Positions 32,658-42,768 of a stretch of DNA of 64,000 bases are shown here, in pieces. Each line of letters starts with the position of its first letter. Position 1 is the first letter of the stretch. Position numbers and translations under genes: made by a program. The stretch comes from Escherichia phage PNJ1902, in the sequence record OK254197.1, one strand, 5' to 3'. Below the pieces are notes generated by a model. The model did no database searches and was not told the DNA's origin. It saw nothing but the letters and a program-made list of their open reading frames with translations.

Positions 32658-33605
32658 ATGTTTGCTACTAAAAACACTAAAGAACTGACTTATGAGCAAA
32701 AATTAATGCGTAATATCAAACGTTGGGGTATTGGGGCTGCAGTTGGTTTGGTAGGTTTAGTTCTGGCTCTTAACTCTTACACTGTTGTTCAAGACGGTAC
32801 TGTTAAAACCCAGACTTTCCTGGGTAAAGTTGACCCTAGCCCAGTATTACCCGGCTTTCATATTGTAAATCCTTTTGCTTCTTTCGATACTTTTAGTACT
32901 AAAGATATTGCTCTAAAATTAGATAAACTTCAGGTTCCTAGTCAGGATAAGTTTAAATCCACTGTTGACCTGACTGTTATGTTGCAGTTTGATGGTTCTA
33001 AGGCACCGATTAACCGTATTAATGCAGGTACTCAGGATCAAGCATTAGACAAATATGTAACTGAAAAATTACTGTCTACTATTCGTGAGTTTGGTAAGTC
33101 TGTACCTAAAGCACAAGATTTATTTGATGCTAAAATTCAGGCTCAATTGCAAACCGCAATTCAACAGGAAGTTGAAGAGTATGCACGCCCATATGGTTAC
33201 ACAGTTAAGCAGGTGTTTCTTCAGGATATTACTTTGCCACCGGTAATCATGGAACAGGTACAGAATACCAAAGTTCGTGAAGAGCAAGTTAACGCTGCGA
33301 AAGCTGAACTTGCCCGCGTTGAACAGGAAGCACAGCAAAAAGTTAAACAAGCAGAAGCAGATCGTGAAGCTCGCAACAACCAAGCTATTGCTAATGAACG
33401 TGACGCAGATGCTAAACTGTACGCAGCTAAGAAAGAAGCTGAAGCTAACGCCGCACTGCAACGTACCATTACTCCTGAGATGATTCGTTGGAAACAACTG
33501 GAAGTTGAAATGATTCGTGCTCAGAAGTATCAAGGTGGTGTACCTCAGACTGTAGTTGGCACTGGCTATGATGGTCAAATGATTATGGATATGCGTAACA
33601 AGTAA
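32658..33605 (+). CDS. SPFH/band-7 (prohibitin-like) membrane protein
   Basis: 315 aa; N-terminal TM helix, SPFH-like core, C-terminal Ala/Gln/Glu coiled coil. Confidence 0.55.
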   Translation: MFATKNTKELTYEQKLMRNIKRWGIGAAVGLVGLVLALNSYTVVQDGTVKTQTFLGKVDPSPVLPGFHIVNPFASFDTFSTKDIALKLDKLQVPSQDKFKSTVDLTVMLQFDGSKAPINRINAGTQDQALDKYVTEKLLSTIREFGKSVPKAQDLFDAKIQAQLQTAIQQEVEEYARPYGYTVKQVFLQDITLPPVIMEQVQNTKVREEQVNAAKAELARVEQEAQQKVKQAEADREARNNQAIANERDADAKLYAAKKEAEANAALQRTITPEMIRWKQLEVEMIRAQKYQGGVPQTVVGTGYDGQMIMDMRNK

Positions 33606-36255: not shown

Positions 36256-36333
36256 GGTTCTCAAGCTCATATGGTATGAGCACCCGGCTCATAACCGGAA
36301 GGTACGTAGGTTCGAATCCTCGGGGAGCCACCA
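36256..36333 (+). tRNA. tRNA with CAU anticodon (Met/Ile2), tentative
   Basis: Acceptor GGTTCTC/GGGAGCC (2 GU), loop CTCATAA, TTCGAAT T-loop with weak 3-bp T-stem. Confidence 0.45.
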
Positions 36334-38800: not shown

Positions 38801-38902
38801 AATTCTGTGTAGAGTTAAGTAAACCGGTAGCCAACCAGCTATCATTGCTGACATCGAATTCAGCCACAGATACCATTTTCATTAATAACTGAGGAAACAA
38901 GC

Positions 38903-39200: not shown

Positions 39201-39548
39201 ATGATTAATGCTAAAGAAGAGTTGTTACTTGCCCTAAAGAATACTAATTCTGAAGTTAAGTGTATTAAGATAGAATTCGGTTATTATGGAGACAAAGAAG
39301 TTTGGGTATTGCCCGTAGGTTATACAGAAAAAGATATTGAAGATTTTCTAAATAATCTAGACTTTAAATATGACTCGGGTTTCGGTGGACAATTGCTTTA
39401 TGGTAACGTATGGTTTACTGATGGAACTTGGTTAGAACGTGGTGAATATGATGGTTCTGAATGGTGGGAGTATAAGACTACACCAGCAATCCCTGAGGAA
39501 TGCCGAACAATTAATGGTGAAGTAGATAATACTTTACGGTTAAACTAA
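39201..39548 (+). CDS. Hypothetical protein
   Basis: 115 aa ORF. Confidence 0.55.
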   Translation: MINAKEELLLALKNTNSEVKCIKIEFGYYGDKEVWVLPVGYTEKDIEDFLNNLDFKYDSGFGGQLLYGNVWFTDGTWLERGEYDGSEWWEYKTTPAIPEECRTINGEVDNTLRLN

Positions 39549-39553
39549 TAAAA

Positions 39554-39660
39554 TTTCAGTGCAGAACACGGAGCTAGCAATTCGGAAGTGCTGACTCATG
39601 ATAAGCTGCCTATGTACTTGCGAAGCGGTCGTGTCCAAGACTCGGACTCTTGCACTGAAA
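39554..39660 (+). ncRNA. Hairpin-closed structured element (candidate small RNA)
   Basis: 10-bp terminal inverted repeat TTTCAGTGCA/TGCACTGAAA enclosing ~87 nt, no ORF. Confidence 0.3.
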
Positions 39661-39670
39661 ACAATCAAAC

Positions 39671-39791
39671 ATTCTAGCGTGGTTGATGGGGAAACCAGCT
39701 TGGCTAGGGCAGAAGCTCGTTCGATTCGAGTGAAAGAATGGTTCTCGTAAGTCCGCACAAGTGATAACAGGTTCGAGTCCTGTCTAGAATG
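39671..39791 (+). ncRNA. tRNA-like cloverleaf with ~48-nt insertion in the anticodon loop
   Basis: Perfect 7-bp acceptor ATTCTAG/CTAGAAT, D stem TGGT/ACCA, anticodon stem GCTTG/CAAGT enclosing 55 nt, T-arm ACAGG-TTCGAGT-CCTGT. Confidence 0.4.
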
Positions 39792-39806
39792 ACACTATAA
39801 AGTTTA

Positions 39807-39920
39807 CTTATTATGTAGGTTCCGATAGATCGGCGGGTCTATTCTGGCATTTAAGAGAGGTCTCGCAAACTTCTTTGTCAGCCGTGGGGTTGGTAGCCTC
39901 CAGGTGGCCTACACAATAAG
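39807..39920 (+). ncRNA. Hairpin-closed structured element (candidate small RNA)
   Basis: 13-bp inverted repeat CTTATTATGTAGG/CCTACACAATAAG (12/13 match) enclosing ~88 nt with internal CCGATAGATCGG hairpin. Confidence 0.3.
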
Positions 39921-39940
39921 TAAATTTATTAAAAATTCAT

Positions 39941-39969
39941 TTGCTATTCTGCTTAATTCTCTGTATAAT
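39941..39969 (+). promoter_or_regulatory. sigma70 promoter (T5 early type)
   Basis: TTGCTA-17-TATAAT. Confidence 0.7.
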
Positions 39970-40641: not shown

Positions 40642-40879
40642 ATTTATATAAATTGATGAGGAGAGATCCTCATCATAGTTCACTAAGGTATTAGCTCGAC
40701 CTAGGACTGGCTGCCAAAAAGCACGATCCCTTCTACTTGGGAGAAGTTCTAGATTAGTCCACTAGATTCAGCGGCAACTGAATAGTGTATCGGGTTTGCG
40801 AGATGACGCAGTTCCTTCCGCTCGAAGCGAAGGTGCTGTAGTTACGCCGAGCTAATAGCCTTAGTAAACTAAAGATTTT

Positions 40880-40972: not shown

Positions 40973-41473
40973 ATGAAGGTAGCTAAAAATGGGAGAAAAG
41001 ATAACTTAAATGAGTTAGAAATATTCCTCCACAATAACAAACTAGACGTAACCGCTAGTAATTACATGCAAATAGCTCTATGGTATAATGGGTATATAGT
41101 TAGGAAGGCCAATCCTAGTAAGGATAAGAAGTCAAATACATACCAAAAGAGACTAGAGCATAGCTATCAAAGATCCCTAAGAGTAGTACAGCTTTATTGT
41201 TATATCAATAATATAAATAATAAGCTGGGATATATTTATATAATATCTAATCCAGCTTTTCCAGGCTGGTTTAAAGTAGGAGCAGCCAAAGATGCTGAGA
41301 CTAGATTAAATACCTATCAAACATACTCCCCTTTTCGGGACTATGTATTAGAGTATTATAAACTAGTAGATAATTATGAACTCAAAGAAAAAGAAATCCT
41401 AAGTTCTTTTTCATCTAGAAATAATGAGTGGGTTCATGCTCCACTTGAAGAAATAATTGCTTGCGTGGCGTAA
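40973..41473 (+). CDS. T5orf172-domain (GIY-YIG-like) protein
   Basis: 166 aa; GYIYIISNP...KVGAA...RLNTYQT motif; 3' end overlaps tRNA-Leu start by ~15 nt. Confidence 0.55.
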   Translation: MKVAKNGRKDNLNELEIFLHNNKLDVTASNYMQIALWYNGYIVRKANPSKDKKSNTYQKRLEHSYQRSLRVVQLYCYINNINNKLGYIYIISNPAFPGWFKVGAAKDAETRLNTYQTYSPFRDYVLEYYKLVDNYELKEKEILSSFSSRNNEWVHAPLEEIIACVA

Positions 41474-41541: not shown

Positions 41542-41653
41542 AATTTGATGGTCAGAGTAAATTAAACCTACTATCTCGGTTGAGCTGTTTTAATGGGTTC
41601 GAATCCCAGCGAGGCGTAACTGCCTGGTGTGATAGGGGCATCATCTTATTATT

Positions 41654-41744
41654 GGAAGAGCAAATCGAATTGGCGACGAAAACCGCTTGGAAAGTGGCTG
41701 ACTGGTAAAACGGCTTGAGAGTTCAAATCTCTCCTCTTCCGCCA
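41654..41744 (+). tRNA. tRNA-Ser (anticodon GGA), class II
   Basis: Acceptor GGAAGAG/CTCTTCC, loop TTGGAAA, ~18-nt variable arm, T-arm GAGAG-TTCAAAT-CTCTC, G73, CCA. Confidence 0.5.
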
Positions 41745-41757
41745 AACAATTTATATG

Positions 41758-41851
41758 GTAGGTCAATCCAACGGCTGGCGCTGGACTCCGACTTGAAATC
41801 GGTTGATCGTAGTGATACGGTGTAAGGGTTCGATCCCCTTACCTACCTCCA
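41758..41851 (+). tRNA. tRNA-Ser (anticodon UGA), class II
   Basis: Perfect acceptor GGTAGGT/ACCTACC, loop CTTGAAA, long variable arm, T-loop TTCGATC, CCA. Confidence 0.5.
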
Positions 41852-41856
41852 AATCT

Positions 41857-41988
41857 TGAAGTATGCCGGAATTGGTAGACGGGGCTGCCTAAAAGGTTTA
41901 TAGAGAACATCCACTCTCTACAACATACCTCATAAAGCGGCTGAGATAAATGGTCTATCTCGTGAAGGTTCAAGTCCTTCTGCTTCTT
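41857..41988 (+). ncRNA. Class II tRNA-like cloverleaf with ~41-nt insertion in the anticodon loop
   Basis: Acceptor TGAAGTA/TGCTTCT (6/7, U1-U72), U8-G9, Leu-type D arm, anticodon stem GCTGC/GCGGC enclosing 48 nt, variable hairpin GAGATA...TATCTC, T-arm GAAGG-TTCAAGT-CCTTC; no encoded CCA. Confidence 0.4.
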
Positions 41989-42102
41989 GATACATCTATG
42001 GCTCAAAGTGTAACGGTGCTATTTGATGCTCTTAGTAAGACTTCCCCGACATGCGTTCGGGAGTAAGCTGCTAAGGCTAGGGTAGAAGAGTTTCGGAGAG
42101 CC

Positions 42103-42222
42103 GCCACAATTGAAAATTCGTACTCGTCTTGAGCTGCGTGCAATAGGAGATAACTTGATTAGTATTCTAGAACATGCTAATTGAGGAAGGTTTCGCTAAC
42201 CCTGCGAGTTTTCAATTGTGGC
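42103..42222 (+). ncRNA. Hairpin-closed structured element abutting tRNA-His
   Basis: 14-bp perfect inverted repeat GCCACAATTGAAAA/TTTTCAATTGTGGC enclosing ~92 nt; right arm overlaps tRNA-His 5' end. Confidence 0.3.
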
Positions 42223-42692: not shown

Positions 42693-42768
42693 GCGGTTAA
42701 GCACACGGGTTGTGCCGCAGGCCTTCCAAGCCTCGCTGAGTAGGGTTCGATTCCCTCTAGCCGCTCCA
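42693..42768 (+). tRNA. tRNA-Gly (anticodon UCC)
   Basis: Anticodon arm GGCCTTCCAAGCC as in E. coli tRNA-Gly(UCC), 3' end GCTCCA. Confidence 0.6.

What the first reader, a model, noticed from the sequence alone, without database searches (positions are those of the whole stretch)
39671..39791. Complete tRNA cloverleaf with a ~48-nt insertion in the anticodon loop
All four arms of a class I tRNA are present: a perfect 7-bp acceptor (ATTCTAG/CTAGAAT), a D stem, a 5-bp anticodon stem (GCTTG/CAAGT) and a canonical T-arm (TTCGAGT). The anticodon stem, however, encloses 55 nt instead of 7. The insert has its own hairpin with a T-loop-like GCTCG-TTCGATT-CGAGT. It is far too short for a group I or II intron, so this is either a novel mini-intron, a tRNA-derived small RNA scaffold, or an inactivated tRNA gene. 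A second, independent example lies at 41857-41988.
Basis: seen in the sequence. Interest (0 to 1): 0.8.

Follow-up and report, generated by a model that had tools for sequence, protein, structure and literature searches.

The report
Known T5 tRNA-like stable RNA2
This is the gene for "RNA2", a tRNA-shaped stable RNA already annotated in phages T5 and BF23 with unknown function; its anticodon loop is replaced by a ~48-nt folded module that is the best-conserved part of the molecule across many distant phages.

Summary
Window 39671-39791 (+) folds as a full tRNA cloverleaf whose anticodon stem encloses 55 nt instead of 7. It is not new. It is 118/121 identical to BF23 rna2 and 116/121 to T5 rna2, both annotated "tRNA-like (stable) RNA with unknown functions". 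The second example (41855-41999) is their RNA1, which has an unrelated insert.

What I add: RNA2 belongs to a family found only in phages in these searches. It occurs in T5-like, Klebsiella, Pantoea and Yersinia phages, in a T4-like Acinetobacter phage, and in uncultivated contigs up to 364 kb, always inside tRNA gene arrays.

The frame helices change sequence completely but stay paired: 95% of cells pair, and 26 of 31 pairs carry double changes. The insert is nearly invariant: GGGY, a hairpin with loop UUCGAUU, YGG, and CGUAA-N-UCCGCA. That pattern argues against a pseudogene and against a known intron type. Deleting the insert does not leave a canonical anticodon loop.

My best reading is a non-decoding RNA that uses a tRNA frame as scaffold and for maturation, and presents a conserved three-way-junction module as the working part. 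Its partner is unknown. A mini-intron in an Arg(CCG)-like tRNA is not excluded (about 8%).

The parts
39671..39791 (+). RNA2 gene: a 121-nt tRNA-like RNA running from the first acceptor base to the discriminator G. The BF23 and T5 records annotate 125 nt, which maps to window 39670-39794.
   Evidence: 118/121 identical to BF23 rna2 and 116/121 to T5 rna2. The covariance model R1 scores it at 151 bits.
39671..39677 (+). Acceptor stem, 5' strand (ATTCTAG). It pairs with 39784-39790 (CTAGAAT).
   Evidence: All 7 pairs show changes on both sides across the family.
39680..39697 (+). D arm: stem TGGTT/AACCA with loop GATGGGGA, which contains a GG.
   Evidence: All 5 pairs show changes on both sides. 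The arm is missing in Acinetobacter phage 133.
39698..39702 (+). 'Anticodon' stem, 5' strand (GCTTG). It pairs with 39758-39762 (CAAGT).
   Evidence: All 5 pairs covary and 98% of cells are paired.
39707..39754 (+). Conserved 48-nt module that replaces the anticodon loop. It contains:
- closing helix GGGC (39707-39710) / GUCC (39751-39754);
- hairpin GCUCG-UUCGAUU-CGAGU (39715-39731);
- short hairpin GAA-UGG-UUC (39736-39744);
- single-stranded CGUAA (39746-39750).
   Evidence: Invariant GGG, UUCGAUU, GG, CGUAA and UCCGCA across 36 distinct family sequences.
- Inner hairpin: 4 of 5 pairs covary.
- Closing helix: 3 invariant pairs plus one covarying pair (UA 12, CG 4, other 6).
- GG hairpin: 72.6% paired against 58.7% in shuffles, 0/500.
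- The alternative AGAA/UUCU helix has no support.
39755..39757 (+). Invariant GCA linking the module to the 3' strand of the anticodon stem. With the preceding N-U-C-C it forms the 7-mer NUCCGCA.
   Evidence: Invariant in every member. ARAGORN with intron search reads NUCCGCA as an Arg(CCG) anticodon loop in 4 of 24 members.
39767..39783 (+). T arm: ACAGG-TTCGAGT-CCTGT.
   Evidence: 100% of cells are paired and 4 of 5 pairs covary. The A-T closing pair in the window is G-C in BF23.
41855..41999 (+). It has a class II (Leu-like) tRNA frame with a long variable arm. Its anticodon loop is replaced by a different ~48-nt rod-like extension ending in a hairpin with loop ACAUCCAC.
   Evidence: Annotated as rna1 in BF23 and T5 and mapped to the window. 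Compensatory changes occur in the acceptor stem and insert hairpin. Fold. Not matched by model R1.

Best explanation
This is the gene for RNA2 of T5-like phages, a tRNA-shaped stable RNA that does not decode.

Shown here:
- It has a complete cloverleaf frame, kept by compensatory substitutions.
- It sits on the same strand inside tRNA gene arrays, separated from neighbouring tRNAs by spacers of a few nucleotides.
- Its anticodon loop is replaced by a ~48-nt module that is the most conserved part of the molecule in distant phages.

Inferred:
- RNA2 is transcribed with the neighbouring tRNAs.
- Its 5' end is cut by RNase P and its 3' end is trimmed because it looks like a tRNA. The frame therefore acts as a natural 'tRNA scaffold' that gives correct ends, stability and an L-shape.
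- It is not charged with an amino acid and does not read codons.
- The module is the working part. It folds as a small three-way junction: a 4-bp closing helix, a hairpin with a T-loop (UUCGAUU), and a short hairpin with a GG loop. The T-loop and GG loop probably dock on each other the way the T and D loops do at a tRNA elbow.

Most likely role (speculative): a tRNA mimic that occupies or titrates a factor that binds tRNAs. The module is almost invariant in phages of very different hosts. For that reason I favour a broadly conserved partner (tRNA-processing, tRNA-modifying or translation machinery, or a co-travelling phage protein) over one particular, patchily distributed defence nuclease.
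For: Identity:
- The BF23 and T5 records annotate this gene as rna2, 'tRNA-like (stable) RNA with unknown functions'.
- It is 118/121 and 116/121 identical to them.

Frame under selection:
- 95.2% of cells are paired and 26 of 31 pairs show double changes; both controls are far lower.
- RNAalifold predicts the same helices.
- The Rfam tRNA model accepts the frames of relatives L052 and L049, with a 53-55-nt replacement of the loop.

Module conserved:
- GGG, UUCGAUU, GG, CGUAA and UCCGCA are invariant in 36 distinct sequences.
- These come from Demerecviridae, the T4-like Acinetobacter phage 133, and uncultivated contigs of 60-364 kb.

Context:
- In most loci checked the RNA lies in an array of tRNA genes on the same strand, and where a tRNA is adjacent the spacer is 3-10 nt.

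Not a decoder:
- The discriminator base varies (G, A, U, C), acceptor sequences are not conserved, and position 20 varies.
- The window copy lacks the encoded CCA that all 21 neighbouring tRNAs have.
- Removing the module in silico gives no consistent anticodon loop.

Phage-restricted as far as tested:
- 26 core-pattern hits in 100,044 species genomes are all chance matches, and the model finds none of them.
Against: - I examined no expression or end-mapping data.
- Folding energy of the window copy is no better than shuffles (z = -0.18).
- The partner and role are unknown; no protein or RNA target was identified.
- The fine structure of the module is only partly settled. The GG hairpin has modest support, and it fails in the Klebsiella and Yersinia copies.
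- The invariant NUCCGCA just before the 3' stem strand resembles the anticodon loop of a tRNA-Arg(CCG) as I recall it from E. coli. ARAGORN with intron search calls Arg(CCG) with a 45-48-nt intron in 4 of 24 members.
- Pantoea and Klebsiella copies do encode CCA, so charging is not ruled out everywhere.
Confidence: 0.6

Rival explanations
1. It is an intron-containing tRNA. The invariant N-U-C-C-G-C-A just before the 3' strand of the anticodon stem would be the true anticodon loop (U33, anticodon CCG for Arg). The 45-48 nt upstream would be a new kind of mini-intron lying between positions 31 and 32. That intron pairs with the anticodon region (GGGY with RUCC), as intron-anticodon helices do in eukaryotic pre-tRNAs. 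It would be removed by an unknown ribozyme or enzyme activity and the halves ligated.
For: - ARAGORN with intron search calls tRNA-Arg(ccg) with an intron of 45-48 nt in L052, L049, L026 and L053.
- UCCGCA is invariant across the family.
- The Rfam tRNA model accepts two frames with the loop replaced.
- The closing helix is exactly 4 bp and is followed by a 3-nt GCA.
Against: - Position 32 would be A or G in 16 of 22 sequences, and it covaries with the Y of GGGY.
- Position 37 would be C. Established knowledge of tRNAs says this position is almost always a purine.
- A20, the main ArgRS identity element, is not conserved, and the discriminator varies.
- The window, T5 and BF23 copies lack the encoded CCA that all their tRNAs have.
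- The 'intron' interior is more conserved than the 'exons'.
- The layout is not a bulge-helix-bulge, and the insert is far too short for group I or II introns.
- From general knowledge, no splicing endonuclease is known in these hosts or phages.
Confidence: 0.08
2. It is specifically an anti-defence decoy. The tRNA body attracts a host anticodon nuclease or another tRNA-targeting immune effector of the kind T5 tRNAs are known to counter, such as PARIS or retron Ec78 PtuAB. The uncleavable, folded 'anticodon' module would then trap or block that effector.
For: - RNA2 lies in the T5 tRNA region. Single tRNAs from that region neutralise PARIS (PMC11464382) and retron Ec78 (bioRxiv 10.1101/2023.03.15.532788).
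- The region appears dispensable: a paper on T5 mutants with deletions in the tRNA gene region (Glukhov et al. 2018) is cited in PMC11464382 (I saw only its title). That fits an accessory, conflict-related role.
- The frame is conserved but there are no aminoacylation identity signals.
Against: - The module is nearly invariant across phages of enterobacteria, Acinetobacter and unknown environmental hosts. Defence nucleases are patchy and diverse, so a single conserved decoy shape is unexpected.
- No paper found in the library links RNA2 to a defence system.
Confidence: 0.2
3. It is only a processing signal. The tRNA-like fold would serve as an RNase P 'punctuation mark' that cuts the long transcript and releases the downstream RNAIV or neighbouring tRNAs. 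The RNA itself would have no further role.
For: - No promoter-like site lies directly upstream, and the nearest good match is downstream at 39941-39969. RNA2 must therefore be cut out of a longer transcript.
- RNAIV follows 21 nt downstream.
- Spacers to neighbouring tRNAs in relatives are tight.
Against: - A punctuation mark needs only the acceptor and T-arm half. Here the D arm, the anticodon stem and above all a 48-nt module are conserved or covary across distant phages with different neighbours.
- The T5 record describes it as a stable RNA.
Confidence: 0.06
4. It is a decayed tRNA pseudogene, or a degenerate mini-tmRNA.
For: - tRNA detectors do not call the window copy.
- Position 8 is C rather than U, and CCA is not encoded.
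- tmRNA also replaces the anticodon arm with a large insert. Relative L028 gives a very weak tmRNA hit (12.5 bits, E = 0.16).
Against: - Compensatory changes occur in every helix and the module is invariant, which rules out neutral decay.
- There is no tag reading frame and no G3:U70 pair.
- ARAGORN finds no tmRNA in the window and Rfam gives no tmRNA match at E<=10.
Confidence: 0.03

Closest known systems
RNA2 (rna2) of phages T5 (AY543070, 32959-33083) and BF23 (NC_042564 / AJ604530)
   Same: It is the same gene. It is 116-118/121 identical. It has the same neighbours: the ORF trn 2.10 homologue upstream and rnaIV downstream, as in T5.
   Different: BF23 has an extra tRNA-Gly2 plus about 150 nt between rna2 and rnaIV; the window and T5 lack it. 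The records give no function.
RNA1 (rna1) of T5 and BF23, window 41855-41999
   Same: Same design: a tRNA frame with the anticodon loop replaced by about 48 nt, no encoded CCA, and the same tRNA region. It is conserved in Demerecviridae, including Klebsiella Sugarlandvirus.
   Different: The frame is class II, with a long and invariant variable arm. The insert is a rod ending in a hairpin with loop ACAUCCAC, not the three-way junction. The RNA2 model does not match it. I did not see it outside Demerecviridae.
T4 species 1 and species 2 RNAs (rnaC, rnaD)
   Same: They are small stable RNAs of unknown function encoded at the end of a phage tRNA cluster. rnaC has a tRNA-like T arm.
   Different: There is no detectable homology. 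Model R1 gives only 10 bits over the T-arm part of rnaC and nothing over rnaD. They have no full cloverleaf and no RNA2 module.
tmRNA (RF00023)
   Same: It is a tRNA-like molecule whose anticodon arm is replaced by a large structured insert. It is processed like a tRNA.
   Different: RNA2 has a D stem, no G3:U70 pair, no tag reading frame and no series of pseudoknots. It is about 120 nt, against about 360 nt. ARAGORN and Rfam do not match it.
Bacterial Y-RNA-like YrlA and other tRNA mimics
   Same: These are non-decoding RNAs that copy the tRNA T-arm/D-arm elbow and are handled by tRNA enzymes (from my own knowledge of Chen et al. 2014).
   Different: In YrlA the RNA ends lie in the Ro-binding stem, not in the acceptor stem. 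I saw no Rfam match. I did not look for a Ro/Rsr gene.
Engineered 'tRNA scaffold' for expressing RNAs in E. coli (Ponchon and Dardel; from my own knowledge)
   Same: The same architectural principle: a foreign structured RNA is grafted onto the anticodon stem of a tRNA, so the cell processes and stabilises it.
   Different: That scaffold is man-made. RNA2 would be a natural, evolutionarily conserved case.
Intron-containing tRNA genes (bacterial group I; archaeal/eukaryal bulge-helix-bulge)
   Same: Extra sequence sits inside the anticodon arm, and a helix forms between the insert and the anticodon-side nucleotides.
   Different: At 48 nt the insert is far below group I or II size. It is not at position 37/38 and has no bulge-helix-bulge geometry. 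The insert is more conserved than the flanks, and the residual loop is non-canonical.

Membership tests
T5/BF23 RNA2 (annotated misc_RNA rna2) | Sequence identity to the annotated rna2 genes | tested here: met
   118/121 identical to BF23 and 116/121 to T5. The 401-nt query is 100% identical to Salmonella phage PH204 and matches 481 phage records.
T5/BF23 RNA2 (annotated misc_RNA rna2) | Position in the tRNA region, between the ORF trn 2.10 homologue and rnaIV | tested here: met
   The ORF at 39201-39548 is upstream, rnaIV maps to 39813-39915, and the layout is the same as in T5.
T5/BF23 RNA2 (annotated misc_RNA rna2) | Accumulates as a stable RNA of about 125 nt in infected cells | not testable with these tools
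No RNA data are available here.
Canonical tRNA (Rfam RF00005) | Four-arm cloverleaf with acceptor, D, anticodon and T stems | tested here: met
   Read from the sequence, supported by covariation and by RNAalifold.
Canonical tRNA (Rfam RF00005) | 7-nt anticodon loop with U33 and a purine at position 37 | tested here: not met
   55 nt lie between the stem strands. No placement gives U33 together with a purine at 37.
Canonical tRNA (Rfam RF00005) | Reaches the Rfam gathering score (29 bits) or is called by ARAGORN | tested here: not met
   The window copy gives no hit even at E<=10. Relatives L052 and L049 do reach 44.8 and 40.9 bits, but only with the loop skipped as a 53-55-nt insertion.
Canonical tRNA (Rfam RF00005) | Encoded 3' CCA, as in every tRNA gene of this phage | tested here: not met
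   21 of 21 tRNAs have N-CCA; RNA2 has G-ACA.
Intron-containing tRNA | Removing the insert restores a canonical anticodon loop with one consistent anticodon | tested here: not met
   After in-silico deletion, ARAGORN calls only 8 of 24 sequences, as Leu, Gln, Ala or undetermined. With intron search it of 24, four of them as Arg(ccg) with C at position 37.
Intron-containing tRNA | A known intron type: group I/II core, or bulge-helix-bulge at 37/38 | tested here: not met
   The insert is 48 nt and gives no Rfam intron match. The 3-nt GCA and the 3-5-nt 5' linker lie at the same end of the 4-bp helix, not at opposite ends (read from the sequence).
Intron-containing tRNA | A spliced, ligated product exists | not testable with these tools
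   This needs RNA-seq or a Northern blot.
tmRNA | tRNA-Ala-like domain with G3:U70, a tag reading frame and pseudoknots | tested here: not met
   Pair 3:70 is T-A. ARAGORN finds no tmRNA and Rfam gives no tmRNA match at E<=10.
T4 rnaC / rnaD | Homology of sequence and structure | tested here: not met
   Model R1, run with filters off on the T4 tRNA region, gives 10.3 bits over the 3' part of rnaC only and nothing over rnaD.

The most novel reading that the evidence does not exclude
RNA2 would be the founding member of a widespread, phage-specific and so far uncurated class of non-coding RNA. In this class a natural tRNA scaffold carries a conserved three-way-junction module, in effect a second tRNA-elbow-like knob at the anticodon end. 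The module would act on conserved tRNA or translation machinery, or on a tRNA-targeting immune effector. An even more novel alternative is that the module is a new kind of ~48-nt tRNA intron placed 5' of the anticodon loop.
Probability: 0.4. Interest if true: 0.75.

Novelty: already known. Interest (0 to 1): 0.45.

Why it matters
The gene itself has long been annotated as rna2 in the T5 and BF23 records, so the finding as written is not a discovery.

What may be useful is the comparative result. The 'insert' is the constrained part, not the tRNA frame. The same module turns up in T4-like and jumbo-size phage genomes, always within tRNA arrays. It matches no Rfam 15 family.

That turns an unexplained curiosity in T5 into a defined RNA family, with a structure model and invariant nucleotides to mutate. 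It arrives when phage tRNA clusters are being reinterpreted as weapons against tRNA-targeting immunity (PMC11464382).

It also shows that many phage genome records place a 'hypothetical protein' CDS over this RNA.

Tried and rejected
1. Thermodynamic significance of the window copy: not significant (z = -0.18).
2. MAFFT alignments of divergent members misaligned the 5' half and the inner hairpin. I replaced them with a covariance-model alignment.
3. Homology to T4 species 1 and 2 RNAs: none.
4. Presence in bacteria: the core pattern gave 26 hits in 100,044 species genomes. All lie in coding-looking sequence without the hairpin, and the model matches none. Two viral-contig hits (L021, L027) and L046 are also chance matches.
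5. Resemblance to pseudoknot PK1 of tmRNA (CCGAGGG ... CUCGUAA ... CCGCA, recalled from memory): the extra pairing is not kept across the family (read), and Rfam and ARAGORN give no tmRNA match.
6. Resemblance to the 23S rRNA L1 stalk (GUAGGAUA, UUGAAAUA): equally good matches occur all over the E. coli rrn operon, so it is not distinctive. Only the order of elements (closing helix, then T-loop hairpin, then GG hairpin) is similar, and that is from memory.
7. An alternative helix AGAA/UUCU inside the module: no better than shuffles.
8. Bulge-helix-bulge reading of the 4-bp helix plus GCA: the geometry does not fit.
9. Literature searches for RNA2, for tRNA-like RNAs of T5 or BF23, and for phage tRNA-mimic decoys found no paper on its function.
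10. Whole-genome co-occurrence with particular proteins could not be done. Only up to about 14 kb is held around each hit.

Full report
**Setting.** The window is the tRNA region of a T5-like phage (Tequintavirus). ARAGORN finds 21 tRNA genes on the + strand between 32.5 and 44.3 kb, and Rfam finds 23. A 401-nt query around the finding is 100% identical to Salmonella phage PH204 and matches 481 phage records.

**The observation.**
- Acceptor stem ATTCTAG/CTAGAAT (39671-39677 / 39784-39790), with discriminator G at 39791.
- D arm TGGTT-GATGGGGA-AACCA.
- A 5-bp stem GCTTG/CAAGT (39698-39702 / 39758-39762) that encloses 55 nt.
- T arm ACAGG-TTCGAGT-CCTGT.
- Inside the 55 nt, the hairpin GCTCG-TTCGATT-CGAGT.

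Neither ARAGORN (also run locally with intron search) nor Rfam (gathering threshold; E<=10) reports anything here. The minimum-free-energy fold draws the cloverleaf, but it is no more stable than shuffled sequence (z = -0.18). Stability alone therefore proves nothing.

**It is already annotated.** The BF23 tRNA-region record NC_042564 labels the homologous 125 nt as misc_RNA rna2, 'RNA2, tRNA-like RNA with unknown functions'. The T5 genome AY543070 labels it 'tRNA-like stable RNA with unknown functions' at 32959-33083, followed by rnaIV as in the window.
- The window copy is 118/121 identical to BF23 and 116/121 to T5.
- The differences are informative. The closing T-stem pair is A-T in the window and G-C in BF23. 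The first anticodon-stem pair is G-U in the window and A-U in T5.

**A family, and which part is conserved.** BLAST already showed that distant phages match only the interior of the RNA. These were Yersinia phiR2-01, Pantoea AAS21, Klebsiella Sugarlandvirus and the T4-like Acinetobacter phage 133.

Reading those sequences shows completely different acceptor stems, each self-complementary: AGACAAT/ATTGTCT, TACGGGG/TCCCGTA and ATACTGT/ACAGTAT. The D, anticodon and T stems differ in the same way. The insert is almost the same in all of them.

Two pattern scans of IMG/VR brought in uncultivated contigs of 60-364 kb. I built a covariance model (R1, 31 pairs) from five well-aligned members.
- It finds 24 full-length members at 30-152 bits in the phage and viral-contig loci. 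Most ordinary tRNAs score 13-29 bits and the best 36 bits, overlapping the two weakest members.
- It finds 24 more matches among the first 80 metagenome loci. Together these give 36 distinct sequences.
- None of the 26 pattern hits in 100,044 bacterial and archaeal species genomes is a member.
- In most loci checked the RNA lies in a tRNA array on the same strand; where a tRNA is adjacent the spacer is 3-10 nt.

**Structure.** On 22 members, 95.2% of pair cells are standard pairs. Shuffles give 62.4% (0/500) and slid partners give 35-48%. In all, 26 of 31 pairs keep pairing through changes on both sides. This alignment was fitted to the model, which favours it, but three things argue the result is real: the raw sequences show the same thing, RNAalifold recovers the same six helices, and the Rfam tRNA model scores two divergent members above its threshold while skipping a 53-55-nt insertion in place of the 7-nt loop.

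Inside the insert:
- A 4-bp closing helix GGGY/RUCC, with three invariant pairs and one covarying pair (U-A 12, C-G 4, U-U 6).
- A 4-5-bp hairpin with the invariant loop UUCGAUU; 4 of its 5 pairs covary.
- A short hairpin closing a Y-G-G loop, seen as GAA/UUC, GUA/UAC, UUA/UAA, AGA/UCU, AGU/ACU and CUA/UAG. It is 72.6% paired against 58.7% in shuffles (0/500). It fails in the Klebsiella and Yersinia copies.
- A competing helix AGAA/UUCU has no support.
- The junction strands carry the invariant or near-invariant AG, CGUAA and GCA.

The module therefore looks like a small three-way junction bearing a T-loop hairpin and a GG-loop hairpin. I infer, but cannot show, that these two loops dock as the T and D loops do at a tRNA elbow.

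**What it is not.**
- *Not a pseudogene.* Every helix is maintained by compensation.
- *Not a known intron.* The insert is 48 nt with no Rfam match, it is not at position 37/38, and it lacks bulge-helix-bulge geometry. The insert is more conserved than the flanks.
  - Deleting it in silico leaves 6-8-nt loops, usually with C at positions 33 and 37. ARAGORN calls only 8 of 24 of these, with inconsistent anticodons.
  - One point in favour of an intron remains. The invariant NUCCGCA just before the 3' stem strand resembles a tRNA-Arg(CCG) loop, and ARAGORN with intron search calls Arg(ccg) with a 45-48-nt intron in 4 of 24 members.
  - Against that reading, position 32 would be a purine that covaries with the insert, position 37 would be C, A20 and the discriminator are not conserved, and the window copy lacks the CCA that all 21 neighbouring tRNAs encode. 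I keep this rival at about 8%.
- *Not tmRNA*.
- *Not homologous to T4 species 1 or 2 RNAs*.
- *Sequence echoes are not meaningful.* Resemblances to tmRNA PK1 and to the 23S L1 stalk did not survive testing.

**Most likely mechanism.**
- *Shown:* a conserved tRNA frame, a conserved module, residence in tRNA arrays, absence of conserved aminoacylation signals, and restriction to phages in the searches made.
- *Inferred:* co-transcription with the neighbouring tRNAs. There is no promoter-like site just upstream, and the nearest good one is downstream at 39941-39969. Also inferred are RNase P cleavage at the 5' end and trimming at the 3' end because of the frame. The frame would then act as a natural tRNA scaffold that presents the module.
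- *Speculative:* the RNA acts as a tRNA mimic that occupies a tRNA-binding partner. The module is almost invariant in phages of very different hosts, so I favour a broadly conserved partner over one patchily distributed defence nuclease. An anti-defence decoy remains a serious alternative (about 20%), given that T5 tRNAs neutralise PARIS (PMC11464382) and retron Ec78 (bioRxiv 10.1101/2023.03.15.532788) and that T5 mutants with deletions in the tRNA gene region have been described (title cited in PMC11464382).

**The second example.** RNA1 has a class II, Leu-like frame with an invariant long variable arm. Its anticodon stem continues as a rod: a 4-bp helix, then a 6-bp hairpin with loop ACAUCCAC. 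Compensatory changes relative to BF23, Yersinia and Klebsiella phages show it is also under selection. It matches 492 phage records. It shares the design principle with RNA2 but not the insert.

**Verdict.** The family-level picture and the structure model are, as far as the tools show, not in Rfam 15 or in the searchable literature, and they make an unexplained T5 RNA testable.

Noticed in passing
window 41654-41744 and 41757-41851: Two class II tRNA-Ser genes annotated in BF23 (tRNA-Ser2 is identical; tRNA-Ser1 is divergent) are missed by ARAGORN. In Rfam they reach only sub-threshold tRNA-Sec scores of 19.7 and 38.3 bits.
   Followed up: partly
window 42693-42768: The homologue of BF23 tRNA-Gly1 (anticodon loop CUUCCAA, unusual D arm CACA-CGGGT-TGTG) is called neither by ARAGORN nor by Rfam at the gathering threshold. 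Separately, tRNA-Ile2 at 36256-36333 is found by Rfam but not by ARAGORN.
   Followed up: partly
window 39554-39660: An unannotated structured element lies just upstream of RNA2, closed by a ~12-bp stem (UUUCAGUGCAGA ... UCUUGCACUGAAA). Its fold has z = -1.83. It is conserved only in the closest T5-like phages and could be a processing site or another small RNA.
   Followed up: partly
window 38803-38875, 39813-39915, 40689-40860, 42000-42106, 42111-42216: These are homologues of the other BF23/T5 RNAs of unknown function: rna3 (tRNA-like, 74 nt), rnaIV, RNA 2H, rnaI and rnaIII. None matches an Rfam family at its gathering score.
   Followed up: partly
window 40973-41473: A 166-aa ORF with a T5orf172/MUG113 domain (Pfam E = 1.5e-10) sits between tRNA-Ala and tRNA-Leu. 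Its 3' end overlaps the start of tRNA-Leu at 41459. In BF23 these two tRNAs are adjacent, so this is an insertion, plausibly of a mobile nuclease-like gene.
   Followed up: partly
window ~39795-39812 compared with L001 5256-5482: BF23 carries tRNA-Gly2 plus about 150 nt between rna2 and rnaIV. The window and T5 lack this stretch. BF23 tRNA-Val is also absent from the window.
   Followed up: yes
many phage records matching window 39540-39940: Most deposited T5-like genomes annotate a 'hypothetical protein' CDS across the RNA2 gene (candidate ORFs 39598-39750 on + and 39540-39758 on -). A few call the RNA1 locus 'tRNA-Ser'. These are likely annotation errors.
   Followed up: partly
window 41542-41653: The spacer between tRNA-Leu and tRNA-Ser2 contains an isolated T-arm-like hairpin (TGGG-TTCGAAT-CCCA) with no recognisable rest of a tRNA. 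It may be a tRNA remnant.
   Followed up: no
L006 367-472 (Acinetobacter phage 133): The RNA2-family member in this T4-like phage lacks the D arm (106 nt) and abuts tRNA-Cys by a few bases. The frame can therefore be reduced while the module is kept.
   Followed up: partly
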